A DNA stretch of 64,000 nucleotides from Nitrosopumilus sp. GTDB taxonomy: Archaea; Thermoproteota; Nitrososphaeria; Nitrososphaerales; Nitrosopumilaceae. Below, piece by piece: positions 48,791-63,787 of this stretch; within the stretch, counting starts at the first letter, position 1; every line of letters starts with the position of its first letter. Below the pieces are notes generated by a model. It did not search any database. It was not told where the DNA came from and saw only the letters and a list, made by a program, of their open reading frames with translations. The position numbers and the translations under genes are program-made. Location of the stretch: assembly GCA_965218695.1 (NCBI GenBank), contig OZ244651.1, positions 1,376,001 to 1,440,000 on the forward strand, written 5' to 3'.

Positions 48791-49549
48791 TCATGGAAAC
48801 GCATCAAGTACGGCAGCATAGCTTACAAACCTGTGATTCTCCGGCCGGACACGTATCTGCCGGTACTTGGAGGAGACCGGCCTGCCTGCAACCCCGCAAA
48901 GACCAAGCGAGCCGTGTATGTATCCTGTGTCATTGGCATAATTGAGCACCTCATCTGTAGGCGCGTAATGGTTGACTATCTCTTCAGACACGGCGTCATC
49001 AAGAATCCTGCCGTACTTTTCAGACGACGGGACCCGGTCGGAGATCGAGGCGCCAAACAGGTGGACGCTGCGGACCGCAGGTCCTCCCATCCGGCCTGCA
49101 AGGTACTCTAGCGTGCTGAGGATCACCTGGGAGCCCAGCGAGTGGCCCATTAGCCGTATCGCAGTGTCTGGGCTTGCACACCTGAAATCCTCGATGAACC
49201 GGCCCAGGTGGCACCCGTTCATCACGGCGATCCTCTGGCCGACTTCCAGTGCGGACTTTTCATGCTTTGCCAGGTGGGCGCCGGTGGTGTTAGAATCGTA
49301 GCTGAACCCCACCACCGGAAAGTCATACCCGAGGTGGCGCAGGCGCTCCCGGGCAATGGCCGTCTTTTGGATAGCGCCGCGGCTGTCGTTTCTCAGCCCG
49401 TGAATCATTATAGTGACCTCTGCAGAGACTCCTCTCCTGAGATCCTCAAAGTACCGCCTGGGGTACAGGTAGTATGCATCGTCTTTGAGCCTTTGGCCCG
49501 TGGAAAGATCATAGTATCCCCGAGTGGAGATGCGCGGAATCCTCCTCAT
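48791..49549 (-). CDS. Alpha/beta hydrolase (DUF726/DUF900-like)
   Basis: IHGL, GHSLG nucleophile elbow, terminal NH. Confidence 0.8.
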   Translation of the reverse strand: MRRIPRISTRGYYDLSTGQRLKDDAYYLYPRRYFEDLRRGVSAEVTIMIHGLRNDSRGAIQKTAIARERLRHLGYDFPVVGFSYDSNTTGAHLAKHEKSALEVGQRIAVMNGCHLGRFIEDFRCASPDTAIRLMGHSLGSQVILSTLEYLAGRMGGPAVRSVHLFGASISDRVPSSEKYGRILDDAVSEEIVNHYAPTDEVLNYANDTGYIHGSLGLCGVAGRPVSSKYRQIRVRPENHRFVSYAAVLDAFP

Positions 49550-51201
49550 TGGTGTGAACCCAGATTCTTCTTGTACGCTGCAACCTCAGACTTCTCGACT
49601 TTTGTAAAGAGTGGCGAGATGGTGCCCAGCGCGTGTCCGGGCTTGACTCCCAGGGAGGACATGCCGTCCCACGCAGAATCTGCGACATTCCCGTCCATGC
49701 CAAGCTGGTCCCATATCCTCTGGGCACTCTCGGGAATAAACGGCATGACGGCAATTGCCAGGCTCCGCACCGCATTGACTGAGAGAAACACGCAGTTGTT
49801 GGCGCCGCTGCCCCTTTTCCAGGGCTCCTTGTGTTGGAAGTACTGGTTGAAGAACGAGGAGAACTCCATTATCCTCTTCAGGGCCCTGTCAAGATGGTTC
49901 TGTCTCATGAGTGTGCCCGCGTCGGCTGCAAGGGAGAGGATCTGCTCTTCTGCCTTGGCGTCCATCTCGTCAAAGGGCGTGGCCTCTGGAACCACTCCCT
50001 CAAAGGCCTTTTTGGTGAATCCAAGCGCCCGGTTGACAAGGTTTCCCAGGTTCCCGATAAGCTCCGAGTTGATTCGGACGGTAAAGTCGTCCCAGTCAAA
50101 GTTCAAGTCGTCCTGGGAGTACGGGTTGATGGAGACCAGGTAGAACCGCAGGTAGTCGGCAGGATAATACTTGAGGAATTCCCTCAGCCCGATGTACCAG
50201 TTTCTGCTCTTGGAGATCTTTCTCCCCTGAAGGGTCAGGTGGCCCCGGGTGGGTATGTAGTCGGGCAGCTTGTACTCGCTGTCAATCCCCAGCCTCATCG
50301 CGGGCAGGAACAGGTAGTGGTGGTATGCTATGTCCTTGCCGATAAAGTGGTAGATGTCTGCAGAGTTCCAGAACTCTTTTCCGTCAATCCCCCGGTCATT
50401 GAGAAACTTTACCGCAGTGGAGATGTACGCCAGGTGGTTGTCAAACCACCCGTAGAACACCTTGCCCTTTGCAGAATCAAGGGGGACCGGAACGCCCCAC
50501 GGGATGTCCCGAGTGATGTCCCAGTCGATGAGTCCGGACTTTATCCAGTTCTGGACGTACTTTTTGACGTCCTTTTGGAGGTGTTTATTGCCCTCGAGCC
50601 ACTCGGACAGCGAGTCTCCAAAGTTCCGGAGCCGGAAGAAGTAATGGGCGGTCTTTCTCTTTGTGGGGGGCTGGCTGCATATGGAGCACCTGGGATCGGC
50701 TATCTCGTCGGGCACGCGCCCGCAGCTCTCGCAGAGATCAGAGTACTGGTCACGTGCGCCACAGTACGGGCACGTTCCCTGGACGTACCTGTCAGGCAGG
50801 AACTTTTTGTCATGTTCGCAGTAGAACTGTATTATCTCCTGCTCGTAGATGTGTCCTGCATCGTTGAGCTTTTGAAACACGCCCTGGACGAACTCGATGT
50901 TCTCAGGCGAGCTGGTCCTGTAAAAGTAGTCAAAGTTTATGTTGAATGCGGCAAAGTCATCATAGTCGCGCCTGTTCCAGTGGGCCACATACTCTGCGGG
51001 GGTCTTTCCCTCCTTTTCTGACTGGATCAGTATAGGGGTTCCAAAGTCGTCAGAGGCGCAGATATAGTATGCGTCGACCCCGTTGAGCTTGAGAAACCGC
51101 GTCGTGACGTCTGCAGGAAGGTACGTGGATGCGACATGCCCCAGGTGTATCTCCCCGTTGGAGTAGGGCAGGGCGCTTGTGATGATTGCCTTTTCTGTCA
51201 A
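49546..51201 (-). CDS. metG: Methionyl-tRNA synthetase
   Basis: SALPY...HLGH, Zn knuckles, DITRD, KISKS. Confidence 0.97.
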   Translation of the reverse strand: MTEKAIITSALPYSNGEIHLGHVASTYLPADVTTRFLKLNGVDAYYICASDDFGTPILIQSEKEGKTPAEYVAHWNRRDYDDFAAFNINFDYFYRTSSPENIEFVQGVFQKLNDAGHIYEQEIIQFYCEHDKKFLPDRYVQGTCPYCGARDQYSDLCESCGRVPDEIADPRCSICSQPPTKRKTAHYFFRLRNFGDSLSEWLEGNKHLQKDVKKYVQNWIKSGLIDWDITRDIPWGVPVPLDSAKGKVFYGWFDNHLAYISTAVKFLNDRGIDGKEFWNSADIYHFIGKDIAYHHYLFLPAMRLGIDSEYKLPDYIPTRGHLTLQGRKISKSRNWYIGLREFLKYYPADYLRFYLVSINPYSQDDLNFDWDDFTVRINSELIGNLGNLVNRALGFTKKAFEGVVPEATPFDEMDAKAEEQILSLAADAGTLMRQNHLDRALKRIMEFSSFFNQYFQHKEPWKRGSGANNCVFLSVNAVRSLAIAVMPFIPESAQRIWDQLGMDGNVADSAWDGMSSLGVKPGHALGTISPLFTKVEKSEVAAYKKNLGSHQ

Positions 51202-51247
51202 TGTGGGGGGTAATGCAGGCTAATCTTAATAGTGTACGGTTATCGGT

Positions 51248-52460
51248 GGGTGTGTCCTAGTAATAAAAAATGCCATCCCATGTACCAGAATGCCAAAGAC
51301 ATGATTGGTGCCAGAACCCGTCGACGCCAACAGTGCCGCACCATCGATCCTCCACAACCCATAAAATCCCCCAAATCCAAGACACTGTGCGGAGGCTCCG
51401 CTAGGAGGCGCGTGTCAAGACGCGCCGGTTACGCTGCAAGTGTCGCGATTTGATCCTGTGTGAGCCTGCCGTCTTTTGCCTGCAATCTGGCCACGAGCTC
51501 GATGTTGTAGCACATGACACGGATCGCAGTCTCCCTTGTCCGGTTCTCGTGTTTTCGGCACCTGGTGCTGTCCCCGTACATCTTCTTGAGGGCGGCAAAG
51601 ACTGCCTCGATGATGCTGCGCTGGTGGTATTCCGAGTCAAACCTGTCCCGTTCATCCATGTACAGGCTTACCATCTCGCGCCACGACTGGCTTCCCCTGG
51701 CGTTGCGTATGGTGTTGGATTTTGGCTTGATGCGGGGCACCATTCCCATCGCAGATATCATGTTGCACATTAGCCTTGCCAGGTATGCAGAATCCAGGCA
51801 AAAGTCGCCGGTGCCCCGGCCTAACCTGCCGAGCATCGCGTACAGCCCGTTTATGTCTGCCACTGCGCTGTCAGTCACCATGCAGTCGATTATCACCCTG
51901 GTGCGGATATCCACGATTGCGTGCAGTTTGACCCATCCCTTTCTGGTACGAAAACTGTCGGTCCTGACGTCAAACCACCTGACAAACCGCAGGTACGAGT
52001 ATCCGGTACCGTCTGCTGCCAGGGAGCCTGCCTCCACCTCCCTGATGGCAATCCGGTGTGCCTCTGCCAGGTACCATTCCGGGATCAGGCCGTAGGCGCG
52101 TGCTATCGTGCTCTTGGAGGGAATTTTCTCTAGGCCCATCTTGGCTGCCATGGCGCTATTGTTTCGGAGGATGCCGACCATCTTACGGTAGGTCGTGCGC
52201 TGTGCCTCAAGCATGATGCAGACAGCTGCCATGGCGCCAGGCGGGTATGCCGTCATGCCGCCCAGGCCGGGCCTGACGGCGTACGGATCCCCAAGATTCT
52301 TGATTATTCCCAGCACGGTATTCAGCATGAGGCCCGACAGGTACTGCTGAACCAAATCGTACTGTCGTTGGTCGCGTTTCTTTGTAGTCATTAGGCGATG
52401 CCGTGATCCGCCGATCCATATCTTTTGTCATCCGGGGGTATATGCCTCTAGGACACACCC
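51248..52460 (-). mobile_element. IS5-family element type B, copy 1
   Basis: IR GGGTGTGTCCTAG; 9-bp TSD GTTATCGGT (51239-47 / 52461-69). Confidence 0.92.
51429..52391 (-). CDS. IS5 family transposase (type B)
   Basis: ADGTG, WVKLHA, LDSAY, YHQRSIIEAVF. Confidence 0.9.
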   Translation of the reverse strand: MTTKKRDQRQYDLVQQYLSGLMLNTVLGIIKNLGDPYAVRPGLGGMTAYPPGAMAAVCIMLEAQRTTYRKMVGILRNNSAMAAKMGLEKIPSKSTIARAYGLIPEWYLAEAHRIAIREVEAGSLAADGTGYSYLRFVRWFDVRTDSFRTRKGWVKLHAIVDIRTRVIIDCMVTDSAVADINGLYAMLGRLGRGTGDFCLDSAYLARLMCNMISAMGMVPRIKPKSNTIRNARGSQSWREMVSLYMDERDRFDSEYHQRSIIEAVFAALKKMYGDSTRCRKHENRTRETAIRVMCYNIELVARLQAKDGRLTQDQIATLAA

Positions 52461-52472
52461 GTTATCGGTTGT

Positions 52473-53984
52473 GTGTTGCATAATTACGCCTACTTCATTA
52501 GAAAATATGCGTAATCCAGAATTTTTTCAAACTCCGCGTTGACATGTTAGCCCTGCTGTCAAAAATTTATGATCCATCCAATTAAAACCAAAATATGCCG
52601 GTTCATACTGTTGTCGAATCAGAAAACAAGCGACCTGCAAAAAGAGAATAAGGCTCTCAGAGACATAATCAAGCGCCAGGACGCAGCTGCCAGGCACGAG
52701 CAAAGCCTGTGGCGCACACGGGACGGTTCCGAATCCGGAGCCGCAGGAGAGCCCGCCCTGTTGCACCGCGTGGAGGTGCTTGACGACATCATCAGAGTCG
52801 GGAAAAATCTTCATGACGCGACGCTGAAGTGCAGGGAACAGTTCCAATACATACTTGACAGGGCCGAGGCGTGGATAAGGCAAAGCGGCAAATCCCCACT
52901 CTTCAGGAATGACGAGACGAGGGCATCGGATCCCGGGAACCGCTGCAAGCTGTACCCAAGGCACGCGCTGCTCATGTCACTGATGTACAAAAAGGGCAAC
53001 CCCACGCAGGGCGTGCTTGCGGCATTCTTTGGAATAGACCAGGCAACCGTGTCCCGGTATATCGATGTACTAGACGAGGTGCTTGACGTGGCGCTGCCCA
53101 CTGCTGCCAACATCTCAAAGGAGATGGCAGACACGGAGACAAAAGAGGATCTCAAAAAAATAATTTCCGGACCTGACGGGGGCATCATGATGATCGACGG
53201 CACGCACTGCCCCATACAGAGGCCGGACGAAAAACAGATGAGAAGCATGATGTATTCTGGCAAGAAGAAAAAGTTCACCCTCAATACCACCGTGTGCATA
53301 AACGAAAACGGGGTGATAGTCGCCATATCCGACAGCACCGTGGGATCCGTCCACGACATCACGCTTCTCAGGGAGAGCCCGCTGCCATTTGGAAAGTGGT
53401 GGGACCGCATGTGCGACGAGAACACCCCCGAAGAGGACAGGGTCCACACCCTTACTGACCGCGGTTACAAGGGAATCGCAAAGGATATGCCCGGTACAAA
53501 CACCCTGCAGCCGCACAAGAAGACCAAGAACCACAAGCGCTTTACAAAGGAGGAAAAAGAACACAACCACAAAATCAATTCCGCCCGGGTAAAGGTAGAG
53601 CACTCCATTGGCAGGCTGAAGCGGTACGGCCGGCTTACCGCGCCATACAAGGGAAAGATTGGCGACTTTAACAGGGAATTTAACATAATAACCGGGCTTG
53701 TAAACCTGGACCTCGTGTGGAACTACCTGGAGAAGGGACCCCCTTCAGGCGGCAATCTGGGGCCGGTAATAAACTGGGAACAGGCAAACGTCCCCGGCAG
53801 CGCCGTTTCAAACAATTAATTCCGTGCACATCGCGGTGCTGCAAGGCTGCGCACGTTATTTCGCATTTCGGGCAGGACAGGATCCCCACATGGCTAACAT
53901 GGCGATAATTAAATTAGAATTTTTAATATTTTCTGGTTTTTCTGGTTTAACCCAACGAAATGGAGGGATTACGCATGGCTTCTA
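52473..53984 (+). mobile_element. IS5-family (ISL2-like, DDE_Tnp_4) element type C with truncated right IR
   Basis: Left end GTGTTGCATAATTACG...; only the inner part of the right IR survives (53966-84 vs reverse complement of 52499-517, 16/19). Confidence 0.75.
52569..53819 (+). CDS. IS5/ISL2-like transposase (HTH + DDE_Tnp_4)
   Basis: IDGTHCPIQRP, YSGKKK, DRGYKG, RVKVEHSIGRLK. Confidence 0.9.
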   Translation: MIHPIKTKICRFILLSNQKTSDLQKENKALRDIIKRQDAAARHEQSLWRTRDGSESGAAGEPALLHRVEVLDDIIRVGKNLHDATLKCREQFQYILDRAEAWIRQSGKSPLFRNDETRASDPGNRCKLYPRHALLMSLMYKKGNPTQGVLAAFFGIDQATVSRYIDVLDEVLDVALPTAANISKEMADTETKEDLKKIISGPDGGIMMIDGTHCPIQRPDEKQMRSMMYSGKKKKFTLNTTVCINENGVIVAISDSTVGSVHDITLLRESPLPFGKWWDRMCDENTPEEDRVHTLTDRGYKGIAKDMPGTNTLQPHKKTKNHKRFTKEEKEHNHKINSARVKVEHSIGRLKRYGRLTAPYKGKIGDFNREFNIITGLVNLDLVWNYLEKGPPSGGNLGPVINWEQANVPGSAVSNN

Positions 53985-54047
53985 TAGTACAATTCAGTTT
54001 CTCTGTCTTGATATGCCGGCGTTGGGAGTTCAATTATTGAAAATCTG

Positions 54048-55791
54048 GTAAGTGATTCGCTTTTTGAAGTGCCCTGATTCCCCTGCCGGTAGTCACCGTG
54101 CCGGGACGGAACCCAAGGATTTTTTCACGCTTTGTCAAAATTAATTGTCTGTAGAGATCCAAGTACTAGCGGGTGCCAGTCCCTTCAGCTAACCACAAAT
54201 GAAGGAACCGACACGCCAAACATGCTTGGAAGAGGAGGGATTTAAGGCAATCCTTGAACGTTCCGCGCAGGACTGCGGTGCCTGCATGAAATCCGAATGT
54301 AGATGCTGCCAGTACTGGTCAGGCGTGGTGCGTGATGCCGTGGATGCTGCCGTCAAGACCCTGAAAATGGCGCGCGAGGTTGCAGGTGCGTCAGACGGCA
54401 ATGAGGCGGAGAGTCTTCAGGCCCAGGTAAAGTCCCTGAAAGAAGACAACAAGAAGCACGCCGAGGCAAACCGCAAACTCAGCGCCCGGGCAAACGGGAT
54501 AAGCATGCCTTCCTCCAAAAAGAAGACCAATCCCGGTAAGGCAGGCAGGCCCAAGGGGCAAAAGGCCACGATCAACAAGAGGCCCGATAAGGTAGACTGC
54601 ACGGAGATCGTAGACTTTGACAGGTGCCCCGGGTGCGGCGGGAAGAACGTCTCGGAGAACCCCACGGGCGAATACGACCGGATCGTCAAGACGCTGACCC
54701 TGCTTGTAAAGACCATAAAGTACGTGACAGTCAGGCGCTGGTGCAGGGACTGCAAGAAACAGGTCTCTGCCAAGCCTCCCGGAACCGCGCCGCACGCGCG
54801 CTACGGGGCCAACGTCGGCGCCGTGCTCAACTTTTTGAATATGTCGGGTCTGTCCCACGCAAGATCCGCCGAATTCGCAGGCGACGCGCTTGGCACGCCC
54901 GTGTCCTGCTCGTCTGCATACAGGAACAAGATAAGCAGGGCCCTGCAGATGGCCCCGGAACGCGACGCCGTGAGGAAAAAGATCCTCAAAGAGCCGCACC
55001 TGGGGGCCGACGAGTTCCACTGGCCACTCAAGGGCAGGCGCGGCTACGGCGTGGTCGCACTCGGCAAGGAGTCGTGCCTGGTGGAAATAGTAGACTCCCG
55101 CAAGACAAAGACCATCAAGGGAGTACTGCCAGGCTACGAGGGGATCATCACGCAGGACTCGTACCCGGCGTGGCTCCATGTCGGGTCGGCCCGCCAGATG
55201 TGCGTGGTCCACCAGGAGCGCCTGGTGCAGAAGGATCTGGAGTGGAATCCAGGCGGGGACGTGACCGAATTCCTGGCCGGGCTGTCTGCCGTGCACAAAA
55301 AGATCTACCGCGCCTGGCGCGTCAAGGACCCGTATTCCAGGGCCGTGGCGGCTGACTGCATAGACTCGGAACCGGCGGGGCTGTTTGCCGCCCCGTACCA
55401 AGACGACAAGCACGGCACCATCGCCAAATACCGCAAGCGGCGCTACCGCGAGGGGTACTACATGACAACATGCCTGCGGACCCCGGGCATCAGTCCGGAC
55501 AACAACGCGGTGGAGAGAGCCAACCGAAGGTTCGTCTCAGTGAGGAACGACGGCGGGGGCAACCGGTCCCGGAAGGGCATGGACGCAAATTCCGTGCTGT
55601 TTACCATGCTGGCCACTGACCGCGTCCGTAGAGAAAGCTTCTTCGACCACTTGGTGCGTTCTGCGTCCGGCGACGGCTGACAACGGAGCCTGCGTCACCA
55701 TTTATTCGGCACGATCCGCGCTCTCGGATGGGGAGGCTGCGCGAGTATAGGCGCGCAAAGCCAGCGGAACTTCAAAAAGCGAATCACTTAC
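54048..55791 (+). mobile_element. IS66-family element type C
   Basis: 23-bp IR GTAAGTGATTCGCTTTTTGAAGT; 8-bp TSD AAAATCTG (54040-47 / 55792-99). Confidence 0.93.
54199..55680 (+). CDS. IS66 family transposase (type C)
   Basis: GADEFHW, QDSY, QMCVVH, PDNNAVERANR. Confidence 0.9.
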   Translation: MKEPTRQTCLEEEGFKAILERSAQDCGACMKSECRCCQYWSGVVRDAVDAAVKTLKMAREVAGASDGNEAESLQAQVKSLKEDNKKHAEANRKLSARANGISMPSSKKKTNPGKAGRPKGQKATINKRPDKVDCTEIVDFDRCPGCGGKNVSENPTGEYDRIVKTLTLLVKTIKYVTVRRWCRDCKKQVSAKPPGTAPHARYGANVGAVLNFLNMSGLSHARSAEFAGDALGTPVSCSSAYRNKISRALQMAPERDAVRKKILKEPHLGADEFHWPLKGRRGYGVVALGKESCLVEIVDSRKTKTIKGVLPGYEGIITQDSYPAWLHVGSARQMCVVHQERLVQKDLEWNPGGDVTEFLAGLSAVHKKIYRAWRVKDPYSRAVAADCIDSEPAGLFAAPYQDDKHGTIAKYRKRRYREGYYMTTCLRTPGISPDNNAVERANRRFVSVRNDGGGNRSRKGMDANSVLFTMLATDRVRRESFFDHLVRSASGDG

Positions 55792-56478
55792 AAAATCTGC
55801 GTTTTAGTGCGTCTGATAGTGTATGTAAAAAATGCTTGTCTGCAGTGTTTTGGGTACCAATGATCCGGTAATCACGTGGAATCAACAAGTCCTCAAATGG
55901 TTTTTCAGGATCTGTAGTTGGGATTTGCAAATTGTTGTATTCCAAGGCGGTAAATAACTGGCCAAAGGCCCTGTCAATATTTGCACGGTTAAATTCATCA
56001 ATTACAAGCCAGATTCCCCTATATTTTGAATTTTTTCCATTAATTTTTTTTCCAGCAAAAATTCTTTTCTTGGAATTGCTAGTTCCATCGACCCAATTTT
56101 GTGCCACGGTGTCAGTCACACACCCTTTCTGAATTGAATATATTATTTGGCCATCTTGATCAAGTTTTGGGTAGATTCCCCCAATCACATCTTGAGTTGT
56201 CCAGTCAGCAGTTGCAGTATGAACTTGAGCAAAATATCCTTTAAATTCCCTCCAGCCTAGGCGGGGCAAGATGGTAGCAAGATGAGTTTTTCCAGAACCT
56301 ACTGGCCCAACAAGAAGAATATTTTTTCCAGCAATCAAGGTACTAAAAATTTGATTTAGGGTATCATCATCTATCAAAATTTCTTCCTTGATAGATTTTC
56401 TTGCTTCTTCAAGAGATTTAGTGGATGGGAAGGGCAGTGCCACATCTTCAAAAACATCATTGGGTTTTTCCATTTCTA

Positions 56479-57573
56479 TAGTGGCGATCAAAAGTTCCTG
56501 CAAAATAATTCGGCTTTTCTGTTAAGGAATTTGAACAAATCCAGATTGAATCTTGCAGTTCGATAATACTGGGAGACGGCACTGTGCATGTCCAAGAAGG
56601 TTTTGTAGTATTCTGAGACAAGCAGGTTCCGTTTTCCTTGGTGCCAGCATTCTTCCACGGCGTTGAGATACGGCGAGCCTTTTGGCAGGTATATGATCTT
56701 GATGTTCTTGTTCTCGCGCAGCAGCGTCCGGACGGCTTTTGCGCGGTGCGGGGACGCCCTGTCCACCATGACGGCCACCTTCCCAAAATGCCTCTGCAGG
56801 GCCTTGAGGTACGCAACAAATGTGGGCGCGTTAAACCCGCTGGCAGTCCTGAAGAACTGCCTGCCATCGGTCGTGACTGAACCGTACACGGCGATTCTTT
56901 TGTGGCTTCCCGTATATGGCACGGTTATTGGCACCCCCACAGGCGACCAATACTTGCGACCCGATTTTACGTCGTGTATGAAGAACGCCTCGTCTTCCAC
57001 GACTGGGACAAAATCGTCCTTTTCTAGGCGTGAAATTCTCTTTTTGAGGCGATATTGCCAGCTTTTTACGGCCGTTTTGGTGGCCCTGTTGATGTGGATC
57101 CTTTGCGACCCCTTGGGAGACAGGCCGTATTTTTGCATGATTTTCCTGATATTCGTTCTGTGCATCTTTGTTCCCGTTTCCCTGTGTATGACCTGCTGCA
57201 GTTCGGCAGGAGTGGTCTTGAACCGGTCCACTACCTTGTCCAGTATGCCGTCCATCGCTTCCGGCGAAATCTTGGGCGGCCTGCCGGATCTGGGAAGATC
57301 CCGGAGGCCTTCGAGGCCTCCTTCCTCGTATCTGCGCATCCAGCGGTATACCCACCGGTCAGCCTGCAAGAGAATGTCTGCGGCATCGCTTATGCTCATC
57401 TTGCGCACGTGTACCATGTGCACTGCAAGCATTCTGACACGCACCCTGCCGTCTTTTTCCTTTTTGTACGCCTTTTCGAGTTCTTCCTGTTTTGTTTCGT
57501 CCATGCTGCGTTCAAGGACCACGGATCTACATAGTTTTCGGGCAGAATTTGTCAAAACTTTTGCGCGTCACTA
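56479..57573 (-). mobile_element. IS630-family element, copy 1 (divergent 5' end)
   Basis: TAGTG...CACTA ends; TA duplicated in a CTAG target. Confidence 0.9.
56488..57504 (-). CDS. IS630 family transposase
   Basis: RSGRPPK, EDEAFF, DRASPH, LPKGSPYLNAVEECW. Confidence 0.92.
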   Translation of the reverse strand: MDETKQEELEKAYKKEKDGRVRVRMLAVHMVHVRKMSISDAADILLQADRWVYRWMRRYEEGGLEGLRDLPRSGRPPKISPEAMDGILDKVVDRFKTTPAELQQVIHRETGTKMHRTNIRKIMQKYGLSPKGSQRIHINRATKTAVKSWQYRLKKRISRLEKDDFVPVVEDEAFFIHDVKSGRKYWSPVGVPITVPYTGSHKRIAVYGSVTTDGRQFFRTASGFNAPTFVAYLKALQRHFGKVAVMVDRASPHRAKAVRTLLRENKNIKIIYLPKGSPYLNAVEECWHQGKRNLLVSEYYKTFLDMHSAVSQYYRTARFNLDLFKFLNRKAELFCRNF

Positions 57574-58032
57574 TAGAATTTGATTATAGACACTTTCATT
57601 GATTTTAATGATAGAATTATACGGATTCCATTCTGGCAGTTTCTTGATTTTTTGCTGTAGCATAGGAGAGGCCTTGATTGCATTAGGTACTTGGTCAGAC
57701 GATGGTTCATGCTGTTCATCAAAATAATGAAAATCTTTCATCTTTGCCACATGTTTGTTATCTTCGGTCGTTGTAATATTTTCTACAGTCCCAAATCCCC
57801 AAAAATGCAAGTCTTCGTTATCTGTATAAAACCAGACTGTTGTGGTGTTTTGATTTATTGTAGCATAATTTGACACGTTTGGGCCATATTGGTATTTCTT
57901 ACCTAACATGTCATTCCAATACATTCTGTCTTTTTTCTTTCTTTTAAAGCTTGGAGTGTGACGGGGTGTGTCCTAGAGGCATATACCCCCGGATGACAAA
58001 AGATATGGATCGGCGGATCACGGCATCGCCTA

Positions 58033-58995
58033 ATGACTACAAAGAAACGCGACCAACGACAGTACGATTTGGTTCAGCAGTACCTGTCGGGCCTCATGCT
58101 GAATACCGTGCTGGGAATAATCAAGAATCTTGGGGATCCGTACGCCGTCAGGCCCGGCCTGGGCGGCATGACGGCATACCCGCCTGGCGCCATGGCAGCT
58201 GTCTGCATCATGCTTGAGGCACAGCGCACGACCTACCGTAAGATGGTCGGCATCCTCCGAAACAATAGCGCCATGGCAGCCAAGATGGGCCTAGAGAAAA
58301 TTCCCTCCAAGAGCACGATAGCACGCGCCTACGGCCTGATCCCGGAATGGTACCTGGCAGAGGCACACCGGATTGCCATCAGGGAGGTGGAGGCAGGCTC
58401 CCTGGCAGCAGACGGTACCGGATACTCGTACCTGCGGTTTGTCAGGTGGTTTGACGTCAGGACCGACAGTTTTCGTACCAGAAAGGGATGGGTCAAACTG
58501 CACGCAATCGTGGATATCCGCACCAGGGTGATAATCGACTGCATGGTGACTGACAGCGCAGTGGCAGACATAAACGGGCTGTACGCGATGCTCGGCAGGT
58601 TAGGCCGGGGCACCGGCGACTTTTGCCTGGATTCTGCATACCTGGCAAGGCTCATGTGCAACATGATATCTGCGATGGGAATGGTGCCCCGCATCAAGCC
58701 AAAATCTAACACCATACGCAACGCCAGGGGAAGCCAGTCGTGGCGCGAGATGGTAAGCCTGTACATGGATGAACGGGACAGGTTTGACTCGGAATACCAC
58801 CAGCGCAGCATCATCGAGGCAGTCTTTGCCGCCCTCAAGAAGATGTACGGGGACAGCACCAGGTGCCGAAAACACGAGAACCGGACAAGGGAGACTGCGA
58901 TCCGTGTCATGTGCTACAACATCGAGCTCGTGGCCAGATTGCAGGCAAAAGACGGCAGGCTCACACAGGATCAAATCGCGACACTTGCAGCATAG
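58033..58995 (+). CDS. IS5 family transposase (type B, identical protein to 51429-52391)
   Basis: Identical translation. Confidence 0.9.
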   Translation: MTTKKRDQRQYDLVQQYLSGLMLNTVLGIIKNLGDPYAVRPGLGGMTAYPPGAMAAVCIMLEAQRTTYRKMVGILRNNSAMAAKMGLEKIPSKSTIARAYGLIPEWYLAEAHRIAIREVEAGSLAADGTGYSYLRFVRWFDVRTDSFRTRKGWVKLHAIVDIRTRVIIDCMVTDSAVADINGLYAMLGRLGRGTGDFCLDSAYLARLMCNMISAMGMVPRIKPKSNTIRNARGSQSWREMVSLYMDERDRFDSEYHQRSIIEAVFAALKKMYGDSTRCRKHENRTRETAIRVMCYNIELVARLQAKDGRLTQDQIATLAA

Positions 58996-59166
58996 CTGGC
59001 GCGTTTCACCACGCGCCTCCTAGCGGAGCCTCCGCACCGTGTCTTGGATTTGGGGGATTTTATGGGTTGTGGAGGATCGATGGTGCGGCACTGTTGGCGT
59101 CGACGGGTTCTGGCACCAATCGTGTCTTTGGCATCTTGGCACATGAAATGGCATTTTTTATTACTA

Positions 59167-60268
59167 TAGTGAAAAGCAAAAATTCGTTCCAAGTTCAGCA
59201 CCTCAGACCGAAAACTATGTAGATCATCTGGTCGCCTAACGCGGCATGAGCAAAGTAACACGGGAAGAACTCGAAGCAGCATACAAAAAAGAAAAAGACC
59301 TCAGGGTGGGAGTCAGAATGCTTGCAGTGCACATGGTATATTTTCGCAAAGTGAGCATAGAGGATGCAGCCGTCAATCTTTTGCGATGCCCTCGATGGGT
59401 GCGCAACTGGCTGGAACGCTTCGAGAAGGGAGGCCTTGAAGGCCTCCTGGATCTTCCCAGATCCGGCAGGCCGCCCAAGATTTCGCCGGAAACAATGGAC
59501 GGCATACTGGACAAGGTAGACAGGTTCAAGACCACTCCTGCCGAACTGCAACAGGTCATACACAAGGAAACGGGAACAAGGATGCACAGGACGAATGTCA
59601 GGAAAATCATGCAAAAATACGGCCTGTCTCCCAAGGGGTCGCAAAGGATCCACATTAACAGGGCCACCAAAACGGCCGTAAAAAGTTGGCAATATCGCCT
59701 CAAAAAGAGAATTTCACGCCTAGAAAAGGACGGTTTTGTCCTGGCCGTGCAAGACGAGGCGTTCTTCATACACGACGTAAAATCGGGTCGCAAGTATTGG
59801 TCGCCTGTGGGGGTGCCAATAACCGTACCATATACTGGAAGCCACAAAAGAATTGCCGTGTACGGTTCAATCACGACGGACGGCAGGCAGTTCTTCAGGA
59901 CTGCCAGCGGGTTTAATGCGCCCACATTTGTTGCCTATCTCAAGGCCATGCAGAGGCATTTTGGGAAGGTGGCCGTCATGGTGGACAGGGCGTCCCCGCA
60001 CCGCGCAAAAGCCGTCCGGACGCTGCTGCGCAAGAACAAGAACATCAGGATCATATACCTGCCAAAAGGCTCACCGCATCTCAACGCCGTGGAAGAATGC
60101 TGGCACCAGGGAAAACGGAACCTGCTTGTCTCAGAATACTACAAAACCTTCTTGGACATGCACAGGGCCATCTCCCAGTATTATCGAACTGCGAGATTCA
60201 ATCTGGATTTGATCAAATTCTTTAACAGAAAAGCCGAATTATTTTGCAAGAACTTTTGATCGCCACTA
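59167..60268 (+). mobile_element. IS630-family element, copy 2
   Basis: TA TSD 59165-66 / 60269-70 in the CTAG of the IS5-B IR. Confidence 0.9.
59246..60259 (+). CDS. IS630 family transposase
   Basis: QDEAFF, DRASPH, LNAVEECW. Confidence 0.92.
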   Translation: MSKVTREELEAAYKKEKDLRVGVRMLAVHMVYFRKVSIEDAAVNLLRCPRWVRNWLERFEKGGLEGLLDLPRSGRPPKISPETMDGILDKVDRFKTTPAELQQVIHKETGTRMHRTNVRKIMQKYGLSPKGSQRIHINRATKTAVKSWQYRLKKRISRLEKDGFVLAVQDEAFFIHDVKSGRKYWSPVGVPITVPYTGSHKRIAVYGSITTDGRQFFRTASGFNAPTFVAYLKAMQRHFGKVAVMVDRASPHRAKAVRTLLRKNKNIRIIYLPKGSPHLNAVEECWHQGKRNLLVSEYYKTFLDMHRAISQYYRTARFNLDLIKFFNRKAELFCKNF

Positions 60269-60333
60269 TAGGACACACCCAGTGTGACGTAATAGTACAT
60301 AAGTTTGTTTTTTAGAACTTACTGGCGTACCTA

Positions 60334-61435
60334 TAGTGAAAAGTGAAAGTTCGTTCCAAGTTCAGCACCTCAGACCGAAAACTATGTAGATCAGCCGGTC
60401 GCCTAACGCGGCATGATCAAAGTAACACGGGAAGAACTCGAAGTAGCATACAAAAAAGAAAAGGACCTCAGGGTGGGAGCCAGAATGCTTGCAGTACACA
60501 TGGTACATTTTCGTAAAATGAGCATAGATGATGCGGCCGTCAATCTTCTGCGATGTCCCAGGTGGGTACGCAACTGGCTGGAACGCTTCGAGAATGGAGG
60601 TCTACAAGGCCTCCGGGATCTTCCCAGATCCGGCAGGCCGCCCAAGATTTCACCTGAAGCAATGGACGGCATACTGGACAAGGTAGACCGGTTCAAGACC
60701 ACTCCTGCCGAACTGCAACAGGTCATACACAGGGAGACGGGAACAAAGATGCACAGGACGAACATCAGGAAAATCATGCAAAAATACGGTCTGTCCCCCA
60801 AGGGGTCGCAAAGGATCCACATCAACAGGGCCACCAAGGCAGCCGTAAAAAGCTGGCAATATCGCCTCAAAAAGAGAATTTCACGCCTAGAAAAAGACGG
60901 TTTTGTCCTGGCCGTGCAAGACGAGGCGTTCTTCATACACGACGTAAAATCTGGCCGCAAGTATTGGTCCCCCGTGGGGGTGCCAATAACCGTGCCATAC
61001 ACTGGAAGCCACAAAAGAATTACCGCGTACGGTTCAATTACAATGGATGGCAGGCAGTTCTTCAGGACTGCCAGCGGGTTTAACGCGCCCACTTTTGTTG
61101 CTTATCTCAAGGCCATGCAGAGGCATTTTGGGAAGGTTGCCGTCCTGGTGGACAGGGCGTCCCCGCACCGCGCAAAAGCCGTCCGGACGCTGCTGCGCGA
61201 GAACAAGAACATCAGGATCATATACCTGCCAAAAGGCTCACCGTATCTCAACGCCGTGGAAGAATGCTGGCACCAGGGAAAACGGAACCTGCTTGTTTCA
61301 GAATACTACAAAACCTTCTTGGACATGCACAGTGCCGTCTCCCAGTACTATCGAACTGCGAGATTCAATCTGGATTTGATCAAATTCTTTAACAGAAAAG
61401 CCGAATTATTTTGCAAGAACTTTTGATCGCCACTA
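60334..61435 (+). mobile_element. IS630-family element, copy 3
   Basis: TA TSD 60332-33 / 61436-37 in CCTAGG. Confidence 0.9.
60413..61426 (+). CDS. IS630 family transposase
   Basis: Close paralog of 59246-60259. Confidence 0.92.
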   Translation: MIKVTREELEVAYKKEKDLRVGARMLAVHMVHFRKMSIDDAAVNLLRCPRWVRNWLERFENGGLQGLRDLPRSGRPPKISPEAMDGILDKVDRFKTTPAELQQVIHRETGTKMHRTNIRKIMQKYGLSPKGSQRIHINRATKAAVKSWQYRLKKRISRLEKDGFVLAVQDEAFFIHDVKSGRKYWSPVGVPITVPYTGSHKRITAYGSITMDGRQFFRTASGFNAPTFVAYLKAMQRHFGKVAVLVDRASPHRAKAVRTLLRENKNIRIIYLPKGSPYLNAVEECWHQGKRNLLVSEYYKTFLDMHSAVSQYYRTARFNLDLIKFFNRKAELFCKNF

Positions 61436-61960
61436 TAGGATATGATCATACCAATAACAAAATACATCAAACACACCCAGATCTTTGAGCTCATCAATTT
61501 CAAGAAAATCAATCAATTTTTGGCATTTTTTAATGCCGTCTAGGTAACTCTCGATTTTCGGATCAATCTCATCTTTCCAATTATTAATAGATGCAAAATC
61601 TTTGTATGTACGTTTGATTCTATTATTTATCACAGGATATTTGTCATTAACACAAAAGAAAATCGGAGTAATCGAGCCAACTTGTAGCCTTCTCTGTAAT
61701 TTTTTATTTGCGGTAAATTTCTTAATGTGCTCTTCAAGTTTTTTTGGTTCTTTTTGAAAATTATATCCAAGATCATAGACCATGTTTGCTATCGTGTTCC
61801 AGTCTTCATCGGTGTAGTTGTAACTTTTGAAGTATTGCCTAATATTGCGAAAAGCTGGGAATGTACTAATTCGTTTTGCATACTCCCATTTGAATTGTGG
61901 TAATAATCCATTAAGAATCCATTCTGTAAATTCACTGCTTGATTTATCCATAGATTTAAG

Positions 61961-63486
61961 GTAAGTGTTCACGTGGTTTAACTCATTTTTAGGCGTATTT
62001 TGCAATCTCCGCCAAGTAATCCAATTTCTTGTTTTTCCATGTCATTACACATGAAAAGAAATTCGCCATCCACGTCATCGTCTCCTCTGCCCTTATGCTG
62101 CCCCGTATTTTTCTGTGCACGACTATCTCGCGCAACCCGCGTTCTGCAGCATTGTTTGTAGGCGGGATCTTTGGGTTCAGCACGAACCGGAACAGGTCGC
62201 TGCCAGCATTGCTGATCTTGACCATGAATTTTTCCAATATTGGATCGTCGGCGTACCTTGCAACGATCTTTTCGATGCATGACGTCAGCATGGCAGACGC
62301 GTTGTCCCGGAGAGAGCGCGAGCGTTTCCTGCTTGCCCTTCTGGCATAATCATAGATTATGCGCAGGTGCTTCAGGACGTTGCGCGCGCCTAGGCAGTCC
62401 GGATTGCGGTTGCAGATGTCCCTGGCCTCGCGTATTATGTGCGACCAGCAGCGCTGGACGCGGTATTTTCCGTACGCCGTCCAGCCGTCGCACACTAACG
62501 TGCCGTCCCAACCCCCAAGCGCTTCTTTCAGAACCTTTGCCCCCCGGCTGTCCCGTATCACGTACAGCGCGTGCCCGGTCAGCGGATCGTGCAGTATCCA
62601 CACCCAGACGTTGCGGCCGTTTAGGTGAATCGATGTCTCGTCGGCGTGCAGTATCTTGGCCTTGCGTATCATGGCGGCAATGGCTGCCGCAGGGGCGCCC
62701 AGCGACGTTCCCAGCCTGCGCATTATGTTGTGCGCCGTGCCCGAGGAGAGTGTAATTCCGTACCGCGACATGCGGTCTGCGATCATCCTAAACGGCATGC
62801 GACACACGTAATCGTCTGCAACATCAGTCGTTATGCTCGGATCGTAGCTGCCCTTGTCTGGAAGGCCGGTCTCGGGCTTGATGTCCACCAGACCGCAGGA
62901 GCAGCGACACGTGTTTATGGTGTGGCGCGTGGTGATGACCTTTATCGTGCGCTCCACCCTGGTAATGTCGCGTTTTTCTGACTGCACTATGGAAAGGCTA
63001 CCCGAGCCGCATTCGGGGCAGGCCTCCGGGGTGTGTTCCTCAAACTCGGTGGGTTTTGGCTTGCGGGTGCGGCCCATGTGGCCTTTTTGCCCCCCGCGCG
63101 ACTTCCCGCTGCCGGCCGCATCCACGCGGTCCTTTTGATCCCGGGAGGCTTTTGTGGATTTATTGTAGGCATTCTTTTCGTCGCCTTTTCCCTTTGTGTC
63201 AGGCCATCCGGGCCCCCTTTTTTGTGATGACGGGGTGTTGTAATTGTCATGCCGCACCAGCCTGCGCTTAAGATCAGCAACTGCCAGATTCAATTCCTCA
63301 ATTATCTGCCCTTGCATCTCAATCGTCTGCTTGAGCTTGATGTTCTCAGTCTTGAGATCCGTGTACATCTTTTTGAGTTCAGCCTGGCTTTTCACATCGG
63401 GTTTGGATTACCATCTTATTTGGATCTGTGGTTTGCACAAAATTTACCCAAGAGTGAACTGAATTAGGCACGACGTGAACACTTAC
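61961..63486 (-). mobile_element. IS66-family element type D
   Basis: IR GTAAGTGTTCACGT; 8-bp TSD GATTTAAG (61953-60 / 63487-94). Confidence 0.93.
61989..63395 (-). CDS. IS66 family transposase (type D)
   Basis: HADETS, CDGW, QRCWSH, PTNNAAERGLR. Confidence 0.93.
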   Translation of the reverse strand: MKSQAELKKMYTDLKTENIKLKQTIEMQGQIIEELNLAVADLKRRLVRHDNYNTPSSQKRGPGWPDTKGKGDEKNAYNKSTKASRDQKDRVDAAGSGKSRGGQKGHMGRTRKPKPTEFEEHTPEACPECGSGSLSIVQSEKRDITRVERTIKVITTRHTINTCRCSCGLVDIKPETGLPDKGSYDPSITTDVADDYVCRMPFRMIADRMSRYGITLSSGTAHNIMRRLGTSLGAPAAAIAAMIRKAKILHADETSIHLNGRNVWVWILHDPLTGHALYVIRDSRGAKVLKEALGGWDGTLVCDGWTAYGKYRVQRCWSHIIREARDICNRNPDCLGARNVLKHLRIIYDYARRASRKRSRSLRDNASAMLTSCIEKIVARYADDPILEKFMVKISNAGSDLFRFVLNPKIPPTNNAAERGLREIVVHRKIRGSIRAEETMTWMANFFSCVMTWKNKKLDYLAEIAKYA

Positions 63487-63787
63487 GATTTAAGTTTGCC
63501 CATTAAACTTTTGACTTCATGTTTTTCCTTTTCTATATTTTTTAGATGATTTTTTGCCTCATCTGTTTGCAACCATTCTCTAAACTTTAAAATTAATTCT
63601 TTTGTCATCAAATCAGTTGCTTTCAAACTCAATGCTTTGATTAAAATGTGTTTGCTCGGCTCAAAATGAGAAACAATTCACAGTTAATCCTGAGACTTGG
63701 ACATATGTTACCACGATCCACCGGCCGCAAATGCTGGTGGACACTCCGGACTCCAAAAAATTGTACGCGTCACGCCGCGGGACTAAC

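What the first reader, a model, noticed from the sequence alone, without database searches (positions are those of the whole stretch)
53969..63608. A hidden McrB-like defence gene shredded by six IS elements rejoins perfectly into one 608-codon frame
Seen in the sequence: six AT-rich segments on the minus strand (63608-63487, 61952-61436, 60331-60281, 57954-57574, 56476-55792, 54039-53969) are separated by IS66-D, an IS630, IS5-B (with a nested IS630), another IS630 and IS66-C. Removing each IS plus one TSD copy gives 122+517+51+381+685+71 = 1827 nt with no stop or frameshift: MTKELILKFREW...GKLKS|MDKSS...YDHIL|GTPVSSKKQTYVLLRHT|PSFKRKKKDRMYWND...NQIL|EMEKPND...GPVGSGKT...IDEFNRA...GTQNTAD...ALKRRF|SIIELP. 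Established knowledge: Walker A/B plus NxxD and RRF are the McrB GTPase signature of modification-dependent (type IV) restriction. Inference: a horizontally acquired anti-phage/anti-MGE gene became an IS sink so recently that no frame-breaking decay accumulated. Either it is a neutral AT-rich landing pad or its inactivation was favoured and enabled the IS burst. An ORF caller sees only unrelated fragments.
Basis: partly seen in the sequence, partly recalled or inferred. Interest (0 to 1): 0.85.

Follow-up and report, generated by a model that had tools for sequence, protein, structure and literature searches.

The report
IS-shredded, truncated McrB-like restriction gene
A foreign, AT-rich anti-virus (McrB-type restriction) gene in an ammonia-oxidising archaeon has been cut into six pieces by jumping genes. 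The pieces do rejoin in frame, but the gene's last third and its nuclease partner are gone, so it is a dead remnant in a genome that is one-quarter jumping-gene DNA.

Summary
The six minus-strand segments, joined exactly as described, give 1827 nt with no internal stop. All five insertion sites have proper IS ends and target-site duplications. Homologs or a read-derived empty site validate every joint.

The "608-codon gene" is not whole, however. Only 604 codons are native. The last four codons and the stop belong to a seventh IS (52500-53983) whose flanking triplets do not match. Intact homologs continue for about 200 more residues and are followed by a roughly 500-aa PD-(D/E)xK (McrC-like) gene. 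Neither is found in this genome except beside an intact 40%-identical paralog on contig C9.

The protein has three parts: a helical N-module shared with GmrSD-type enzymes, a PUA-like reader, and an AAA_5 domain with the NTAD motif whose best solved-structure matches are McrB.

The host is an ammonia-oxidising archaeon with 25% repeat DNA. IS density is about 0.9/kb in 35-45% GC DNA and 0.14/kb at 50-55% GC. The equally AT-rich intact C9 system has no IS.

Best reading: a recently killed, horizontally acquired type IV restriction remnant that passively collected IS elements. It is an ordinary kind of thing, unusually tidy. Nothing supports the idea that its loss enabled the IS burst.

The parts
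63487..63608 (-). Segment 1: start codon and codons 1-41 (partial) of the McrB-like gene (N-module)
   Evidence: 11 of 11 N-module homologs align from residue 2-13 onward and cross this joint without net gaps.
61961..63486 (-). IS66-family element 'G', with 8-bp TSD at 61953-61960 and 63487-63494
   Evidence: Pfam DDE_Tnp_IS66 at 1.8e-39. Inverted ends and TSD read. 32 full-length copies; best sibling 99.87%.
61436..61952 (-). Segment 2: helical N-terminal module (residues about 42-213)
   Evidence: AF2 pLDDT 83.9, all-helical. The module is fused elsewhere to GmrSD_N, HNH, EVE and AAA_5.
60334..61435 (+). IS630-family element 'F', with TA duplication at 60332-60333 and 61436-61437
   Evidence: DDE_3 plus HTH domains. 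Ends read. It has 100%-identical siblings. A contig in run X3 joins 60331 directly to 61436, which is the empty site.
60281..60331 (-). Segment 3: 17 codons, covering the linker and the first strand of the PUA-like module
   Evidence: P0001 and P0003 align across the joint to segment 4 without gaps.
57964..60280 (+). IS5-like element 'E' (DDE_Tnp_1+DUF772), with 9-bp TSD at 57955-57963 and 60281-60289. It contains a nested IS630 at 59167-60268, inserted at a TA in the IS5 terminal repeat.
   Evidence: Best sibling 99.75%; the nested IS630 has 100%-identical siblings.
57574..57954 (-). Segment 4: PUA-like (EVE/ASCH/YTH-like) module, residues 231-357
   Evidence: AF2 pLDDT 83.7. VIA Z 6.3 PH1033, 6.1 ASCH, 6.0 YTH, 5.7 S. 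marinus McrB N-domain, 5.6 VcaM4I. The module is found in 44 of 131 stored homologs, directly before the AAA domain.
56479..57573 (-). IS630-family element 'D', with TA duplication at 56477-56478 and 57574-57575
   Evidence: It has 100%-identical siblings.
55792..56476 (-). Segment 5: AAA_5 / McrB-like NTPase core (Walker A, Walker B, NTAD, RRF)
   Evidence: Pfam AAA_5 at 2.2e-15. PDB McrB 6hz4/6ut6 at E 3e-12. 81% identical to P0001.
54048..55791 (+). IS66-family element 'C', with 8-bp TSD at 54040-54047 and 55792-55799
   Evidence: 3 copies; best sibling 99.94%.
53984..54039 (-). Segment 6 (native part only): the last 18-19 native codons. The gene ends abruptly at codon 604.
   Evidence: Homologs continue for about 200 residues beyond this point.
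52500..53983 (+). Seventh IS (DDE_Tnp_4 / HTH_Tnp_4, IS5-superfamily). Its flanking triplets are ATT and ATA, which do not match.
   Evidence: Pfam. Ends and the 3-bp TSD rule come from other copies: 4 of the 5 other copies with both flanks visible have matching triplets. Best sibling 99.46%.
51248..52460 (-). IS5-like element 'A' with a 9-bp TSD, lying between the truncating IS and metG
   Evidence: The sister genome G002 has an IS5-type element at the same target, in the inverted orientation.
49546..51201 (-). Native methionyl-tRNA synthetase gene, which marks the edge of the foreign interval
   Evidence: Pfam tRNA-synt_1g at 1.6e-136. Syntenic with G002.

Best explanation
This is the dead remnant of a horizontally acquired McrBC-type (type IV, modification-dependent) restriction locus in an ammonia-oxidising archaeon whose genome is about 25% IS-type repeats.

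The gene encoded a three-part McrB-like subunit: a helical N-module of unknown fold (also found on GmrSD-type enzymes), a PUA-like domain that probably reads modified bases, and an AAA_5 NTPase with the NxxD (NTAD) signature.

In intact relatives the protein continues for about 200 more residues. It is followed by a roughly 500-aa PD-(D/E)xK protein that would be the nuclease, as in McrC. Here that 3' third and the partner gene are missing. The most likely cause (inferred) is a deletion or recombination mediated by the seventh IS, whose flanking triplets do not match.

Once the gene was non-functional, the AT-rich remnant passively collected six more IS copies at five sites: two IS66, two IS630, and an IS5-like element that itself carries an IS630. 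This happened during a recent genome-wide IS expansion in which insertions persist mainly in AT-rich, dispensable DNA.

Shown: the segments, joints, IS ends, truncation, family assignment, absence of the 3' end and partner, and the genome-wide GC bias.
Inferred: the order of events, the deletion mechanism, and the function of the reader domain.
For: - Frame and joints.
- Collinear homologs across joints 1|2, 3|4, 4|5 and 5|6.
- Joint 2|3: confirmed by a contig in an independent run (X3) that joins 60331 to 61436, skipping 1104 nt, with TA..TA ends and 63 nt on the shorter side.
- IS-occupied junctions reproduced by contigs of runs X1, X2 and X4.
10 of 10 homologs have 218-225 residues after RRF. 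tblastn of those C-termini and of 9 partner proteins against the whole genome (99.99% complete) hits only the C9 paralog.
- Partner: 8 of 10 inspected homolog loci have an abutting 470-560-aa same-strand ORF, and 1 more is cut by the contig end. The PD...DAKNY motif is invariant. PF04411 matches 3 of 8, one above the cut-off.
- McrB assignment. The NxxD signature is defining according to PMC11090510 (passages read).
- Foreign origin. Synteny with G002 gives 2.3 kb there against 15.2 kb here.
- Recency.
- IS bias: 0.86-0.96 junctions/kb at GC 0.35-0.45, 0.14/kb at 0.50-0.55, and 0.07/kb or less above 0.55.
- Control: the intact C9 system (GC 0.37, 3.98 kb) has no repeat. P(0) = 0.028 at 0.9/kb.
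Against: - The cluster is still the densest on C1, with 7 repeat intervals in 1.8 kb of unique DNA. Even at the AT-rich rate, P(>=6) is 0.005-0.009 per window. By my arithmetic that is about 0.4-0.6 such windows expected among roughly 73 AT-rich windows. The rate estimate also includes this locus itself.
- The GC correlation cannot separate target preference from tolerance of insertions in dispensable DNA.
- The order of events rests only on sibling identities and on one nesting, which is weak.
- The 30 nt on the far side of the truncating IS has no match in G002, so the far deletion endpoint is not defined.
- The 3-bp TSD rule has one other exception among the 5 other copies examined.
- The gene scores far below the NCBIfam McrB equivalog cut-off (46 bits against 637). 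PADLOC gave no McrB-model hit; its best was a type II REase model at E 5e-4.
- The PUA-like assignment rests on Z 5.2-6.3, below the tool's confidence line of 8.
Confidence: 0.72

Rival explanations
1. Adaptive knock-out. Loss of this type IV restriction system was favoured, for example because of autoimmunity against the host's own or a partner's modified DNA, or to admit modified mobile DNA. IS insertion was the means, and further hits followed.
For: Run X3, from another study, appears to carry a different disruption. One contig joins 56461 to the end of the DDE_Tnp_4-type IS on the opposite strand (46 nt on the shorter side, depth 2.5), and that population lacks IS630-F. This hints at independent hits in two populations. 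IS inactivation of defence systems is documented for CRISPR-Cas (PMC10359306; I saw only the abstract start in the search listing). The cluster lies in the upper tail even for AT-rich DNA.
Against: One hit is enough to kill a gene, so six or seven need no selection. An intact paralogous McrBC-like system is retained on C9. The X3 evidence is a single low-depth contig. I obtained no phenotype or modification data.
Confidence: 0.13
2. Intrinsic hotspot. The gene's sequence or DNA structure attracts these IS families whether or not the gene is functional. The first lesion was then an IS insertion, and the 3' deletion came later.
For: IS630 needs only a TA, and both IS66 TSDs here are AT-rich 8-mers. 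IS density is highest at GC 0.35-0.45.
Against: The C9 system has the same GC and a similar sequence family yet carries zero insertions over 3.98 kb. The very lowest GC bins (<0.35) do not have the highest density, at 0.47/kb over 17 bins. The IS5-like TSDs are not AT-rich.
Confidence: 0.12
3. Artefact or chimera. The array is a mis-assembly of repeats, or IS630-mediated recombination fused two unrelated gene fragments at the N-module / PUA-module boundary.
For: Joint 2|3 lies exactly at a domain linker, and a TA duplication is uninformative. 0 of 61 metagenomic N-module loci (48 with at least 1.5 kb downstream) carry this PUA or AAA part.
Against: Contigs from three runs reproduce every boundary between a unique segment and its IS. 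A fourth run, from another study, holds the exact IS-free joint 60331|61436. An N-module followed by an EVE domain or an AAA_5 domain occurs elsewhere (L118, L107 and P0122).
Confidence: 0.03

Closest known systems
McrBC type IV restriction system (E. coli K-12 McrB/McrC; Thermococcus gammatolerans McrB)
   Same: An AAA_5 NTPase with Walker A/B, the NTAD (NxxD) signature and RRF aligned to McrB structures 6hz4, 6ut6 and 6ut3. An N-terminal reader domain sits before the motor. In homologs, a PD-(D/E)xK protein is encoded immediately downstream, and its DAKxY motif aligns with McrC's.
   Different: It is far below the McrB equivalog cut-off (46 bits against 637). It has an extra helical N-module, and a PUA-like reader rather than the E. 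coli DNA-binding domain. Homologs carry about 220 residues after RRF. The partner is about 500 aa, compared with 348 aa for McrC, and I detected no DUF2357 in it. hhalign against McrC gave a probability of only 9.9%. At this locus the 3' third and the partner are absent.
EVE/YTH/ASCH-McrB fusions catalogued in the McrBC census (PMC11090510; passages read)
   Same: A modified-base reader of the PUA-like superfamily fused N-terminally to an NxxD McrB-like GTPase. Several close homologs also carry a Pfam EVE domain (PF01878), Mrr_N or other readers.
   Different: I could not check whether this exact branch appears in the census tree, because supplements are closed.
GmrSD-family (DUF262/DUF1524) type IV restriction enzymes
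   Same: They share the helical N-terminal module at 46-65% identity.
   Different: The effector part is entirely different: GmrSD_N with or without HNH there, and an AAA_5 motor plus a separate nuclease here.
IS-mediated inactivation of defence genes and IS pile-ups in IS-expanded genomes
   Same: A defence gene is interrupted by IS elements in a genome undergoing an IS burst. Very IS-rich ammonia-oxidising archaea are in print, with a maximum of 14.95% IS content in a Nitrosopumilus sp. (PMC13343696, passage read).
   Different: The number of clean, independently resolvable insertions in one short ORF is unusual: five sites plus a truncating sixth within 1.8 kb. So is the complete lack of point decay.

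Membership tests
McrB-like GTPase (AAA_5 branch) | AAA_5 P-loop domain with Walker A and Walker B | tested here: met
   PF07728 scores 57.3 bits against a cut-off of 22, covering profile positions 1-139 of 139. Walker A and Walker B align to E. coli McrB.
McrB-like GTPase (AAA_5 branch) | [quoted passage not shown] | tested here: met
   NTAD aligns to the NTAD of McrB 6hz4. The N, T and D columns are at least 90% conserved in 41 aligned sequences.
McrB-like GTPase (AAA_5 branch) | Complete AAA+ module including the region C-terminal to the RRF motif | tested here: not met
   Only 19 native residues follow RRF, against 218-225 in 10 of 10 homologs. The rest is absent from the genome.
McrB-like GTPase (AAA_5 branch) | Orthology to E. 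coli McrB (NCBIfam equivalog NF008457) | tested here: not met
   46.2 bits against a cut-off of 637 for the AAA segment alone. Membership holds at superfamily or branch level only.
McrBC two-gene system | Adjacent McrC-like gene (DUF2357 + PD-(D/E)xK nuclease) | tested here: not met
   At this locus there is none. Downstream lie two IS elements and then metG, and partner proteins hit only C9. In homologs, 8 of 10 loci have the partner with an invariant PD...DAK motif. DUF2357 was not detected. hhalign against McrC gave probability 9.9%, E 0.003.
McrBC two-gene system | N-terminal domain that reads modified DNA | tested here: inconclusive
   PUA-like neighbours at Z 5.2-6.3 (EVE, ASCH, YTH, S. 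marinus McrB N-domain, VcaM4I), which is below the tool's line of 8. Pfam EVE did not hit.
McrBC two-gene system | GTP-dependent cleavage of modified DNA | not testable with these tools
   Biochemistry is required, and the gene here is broken.
IS66 family (two copies) | DDE_Tnp_IS66 transposase, terminal inverted repeats, 8-bp TSD (TSD length recalled) | tested here: met
IS630 family (three copies) | DDE_3 transposase with N-terminal HTH domains, TA target duplication (recalled) | tested here: met
IS5 / IS1182-like (two copies) and DDE_Tnp_4 IS5-superfamily element | DDE_Tnp_1 (+DUF772) or DDE_Tnp_4 (+HTH_Tnp_4) transposase, inverted ends, short TSD | tested here: met
   The two DDE_Tnp_1 copies have matching 9-bp TSDs. 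The DDE_Tnp_4 copy here lacks matching 3-bp flanks.

The most novel reading that the evidence does not exclude
The same foreign McrB-like gene has been knocked out independently, by different IS insertions, in at least two natural populations of this archaeal lineage: this genome, and run X3, which lacks IS630-F but shows a DDE_Tnp_4-type IS end abutting position 56461. That would make loss of this type IV restriction system a recurrent, selected step in an IS-laden (possibly host-associated) ammonia oxidiser, and not neutral decay.
Probability: 0.1. Interest if true: 0.55.

Novelty: new member of a known kind. Interest (0 to 1): 0.3.

Why it matters
On its own it matters little. It is a defence pseudogene in a genome full of IS elements, and it cannot be revived by excision because a third of the gene and its nuclease partner are gone.

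It is useful in three smaller ways:
- It is a clean natural record of successive transposition events, with nesting, TSDs and a polymorphic empty site. That record could be used to order an IS burst in an ammonia-oxidising archaeon.
- Together with the untouched, equally AT-rich paralog, it shows that AT-richness plus dispensability decides where IS elements persist, and AT-richness alone does not.
- It points to a helical N-terminal module shared by GmrSD-, EVE- and McrB-type restriction enzymes, for which I could assign no fold or role.

Tried and rejected
- I looked for the missing 3' end beside a 99.3%-identical inverted copy of the truncating IS at C1:2357108-2358600, which has an 'ATA' flank. 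The in-frame continuation stops after about 13 codons, does not resemble the homologs' C-terminus, and runs into another IS. Rejected.
- Permissive tblastn (E up to 10) with 10 homolog C-termini found only C9 and noise.
- PADLOC gave no McrB-model hit for any segment.
- Pfam and NCBIfam gave nothing above chance for the N-module and the middle module.
- Partner family: a profile search against PDB sequences found 0 hits and NCBIfam found 0 of 9.
- N-module fold: all Foldseek hits had E>1, with HhH-GPD glycosylases recurring but insignificant. The best VIA score was Z 4.9. The fold is unassigned.
- The atlas gave only a weak EVE lead for the middle module.
- The first metagenome scan, with the single N-module sequence, found nothing. 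The allowed second scan, with the alignment, found 61 loci.
- Reads: no RNA holder was listed, so I can say nothing on expression. Joints with 29-30 nt on the shorter side (e.g. 53985>61951, 57576>61960) are best read as other genomic places where two IS copies abut, not as alleles of this locus.
- The 30 nt between the two downstream IS elements has no counterpart in G002.
- I did not attempt complex prediction or the search of protein representatives.
- I did not open any paper supplements. The census tables of PMC11090510 might show whether this McrB branch is already catalogued.
Full report
**Observation.** The region alternates between AT-rich islands (GC 0.26-0.41) and GC-rich blocks. 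This is far beyond chance. The other five frames of the join contain 27-68 stops. Keeping two TSD copies, or none, destroys the frame at four of the five joints; the 9-bp joint is neutral.

The intervening blocks encode IS66, IS630 (DDE_3) and IS5-like (DDE_Tnp_1+DUF772) transposases. Each belongs to a repeat family with up to about 20-38 overlapping BLAST matches per position across the genome. Reading the ends directly shows inverted termini with 8-bp (IS66, twice), TA (IS630, three times) and 9-bp (IS5-like) duplications. One IS630 is nested at a TA inside the terminal repeat of the IS5-like element.

**The correction.** It is a DDE_Tnp_4/HTH_Tnp_4 element at 52500-53983. Native coding sequence ends at 53984, which is codon 604. 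The last four codons and the TAA are IS sequence.

In the other copies of this IS with both flanks visible, 4 of 5 have identical 3-bp duplications. Here the flanks are ATT and ATA.

Intact homologs show what is missing. All 10 homologs examined carry 218-225 residues after the conserved RRF motif, and this gene has 19. tblastn of those C-termini against the whole genome (9 contigs, 99.99% complete) finds only a 40%-identical, fully open paralog on contig C9. So about 200 codons are gone.

**Joints.** Homologs align without gaps across joints 3|4, 4|5 and 5|6 (P0001 is 74% identical over residues 220-603, with 0 gaps). 11 of 11 N-module homologs cross joint 1|2.

Joint 2|3 falls in a linker between modules, and the TA duplication of IS630 is uninformative. 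I therefore took a chimera seriously. Public contigs settle the matter. Run X3, from a different study and organism label, holds a contig that joins 60331 directly to 61436. It skips 1104 nt, has TA..TA ends, 63 nt on the shorter side, and depth 2. That is the exact empty site.

Runs X1, X2 and X4 reproduce the IS-occupied boundaries of segments 1, 2, 4 and 5. They may include the source sample, so they are not independent of the assembly in origin, only in method.

**What the gene was.**
- Segment 5 is an AAA_5 domain (57 bits). Its best solved-structure matches are E. coli and T. gammatolerans McrB, with Walker B, NTAD and RRF aligned. The McrBC census states that the NxxD signature occurs in all McrB-like GTPases (PMC11090510, passages read). 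The gene is not an ortholog of E. coli McrB (46 bits against 637).
- The 127-residue middle module folds confidently (pLDDT 83.7). Its neighbours are dominated by PUA-like modified-base readers: PH1033, ASCH, YTH, Rpa0253, the S. marinus McrB N-domain, VcaM4I and THYN1 with 5mC DNA. The scores are only Z 4.7-6.3, so this is a lead and not a proof.
- The N-terminal 212 residues form a helical module of unassigned fold. It recurs at 27-65% identity on GmrSD_N proteins with or without HNH or Schlafen/AlbA_2, on an EVE protein, and on AAA_5 proteins.
- None of the 61 metagenomic N-module loci (48 of them informative) carries this particular PUA+AAA combination. The exact architecture was therefore not seen elsewhere.

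**The partner.** In 8 of 10 inspected homolog loci a 470-560-aa ORF abuts the McrB-like gene on the same strand. A ninth is cut by the contig end, and the tenth has a fragmented gene. The C9 paralog has a partner too.

The nine partners share an invariant PD...DAKNY motif. Three of eight hit PF04411, which the census uses as the McrC nuclease family, and one of those is above the cut-off. hhalign against E. coli McrC aligns the catalytic motifs but is weak (probability 9.9%). No partner sequence exists in this genome other than on C9.

**Context.** The host is an archaeon (archaeal SSU and LSU) with archaeal amoA (386 bits; 0 of 14 control genomes match).

A quarter of the genome (659 kb) is repeated DNA. 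The locus's IS copies have siblings at 99.46-100% identity. The gene shows no decay: 0 of 51 invariant columns and 1 of 82 columns at 90% or higher conservation differ, which ranks it 29th of 58.

It is foreign. GC is 0.35 against 0.53 for the genome. 0 of 24 same-genus genomes match. The nearest genomic relatives are in AT-rich Nitrososphaerota. In the sister genome G002 (MetG 93% identical), metG and the next syntenic block are 2.3 kb apart; here they are 15.2 kb apart, and by my sum of the element lengths about 77% of that interval is IS.

**Why so many IS.** On C1, junction density is 0.86-0.96 per kb of unique DNA at GC 0.35-0.45, 0.14 at GC 0.50-0.55, and 0.07 or less above 0.55.

This locus is the maximum, with 7 intervals in 1.8 kb; the runner-up has 6 and is a similar pile-up. 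At the genome-average rate, P(>=6) is 3e-6. At the AT-rich rate it is 0.005-0.009. By my arithmetic that means roughly half a window of this kind is expected among the roughly 73 AT-rich windows.

The intact C9 system is equally AT-rich (GC 0.37) yet has no IS in 3.98 kb (P = 0.028 at 0.9/kb). Dispensability therefore matters, and base composition alone is not enough.

**Verdict.** This is a real, tidy but ordinary case: a recently killed, horizontally acquired McrBC-type remnant that became a sink for IS elements. The claim of a complete hidden gene fails. The idea that its loss triggered the IS burst has no support.

One low-depth contig in X3 hints at a different IS lesion in another population. 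That keeps a recurrent-selection reading alive at low probability.

Noticed in passing
G000:C9:33949-37926 (L059:6950-10926, minus strand): An intact, AT-rich (GC 0.37) paralogous two-gene system: an 814-aa McrB-like AAA_5 protein plus a 509-aa PD-(D/E)xK partner, with no IS insertion. It sits on a small 39-kb contig.
   Followed up: partly
window 51239-52469 and L069:7233-8464 (G002): An IS5-like element sits at the same 9-bp target, 46 nt upstream of metG, in both this genome and sister genome G002. The two copies are in opposite orientations and about 93% identical. This is either site-specific reinsertion or an old insertion that later inverted.
   Followed up: partly
whole genome G000: About 25% of the genome (659 kb) is repeated at 88% or higher identity, with 386 repeat intervals on C1. 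That exceeds the 14.95% IS-content maximum reported for archaea in PMC13343696, although the two measures differ.
   Followed up: partly
G000:C1:1087222-1099631: The second-densest IS pile-up: six repeat intervals separated by unique pieces of 100-994 nt. I did not examine the disrupted content.
   Followed up: no
L071-L131 (metagenome loci) and P0121-P0131: A helical module of about 210 aa and unassigned fold is a recurrent N-terminal fusion partner of type IV restriction enzymes: GmrSD_N, GmrSD_N+HNH, GmrSD_N+Schlafen/AlbA_2, EVE and AAA_5.
   Followed up: partly
L006:7626-9049: The closest genomic relative of the AAA part (74% identity, from an uncultured Nitrososphaerota archaeon) appears split into three short ORFs. 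This may be frameshifts or sequencing errors.
   Followed up: no
G000:C1:2184420-2184662: A stretch 42% identical to the zinc-ribbon N-terminus of the long homologs (P0001 residues 7-102) exists elsewhere in the genome, unlinked to any AAA_5 gene.
   Followed up: no
window 64375-64785 (L061:1375-1785): A unique 136-aa ORF with a weak DDE_Tnp_1 match (20.6 bits, below the cut-off) lies just upstream of the gene's start. It is probably a decayed transposase relic inside the foreign interval.
   Followed up: no
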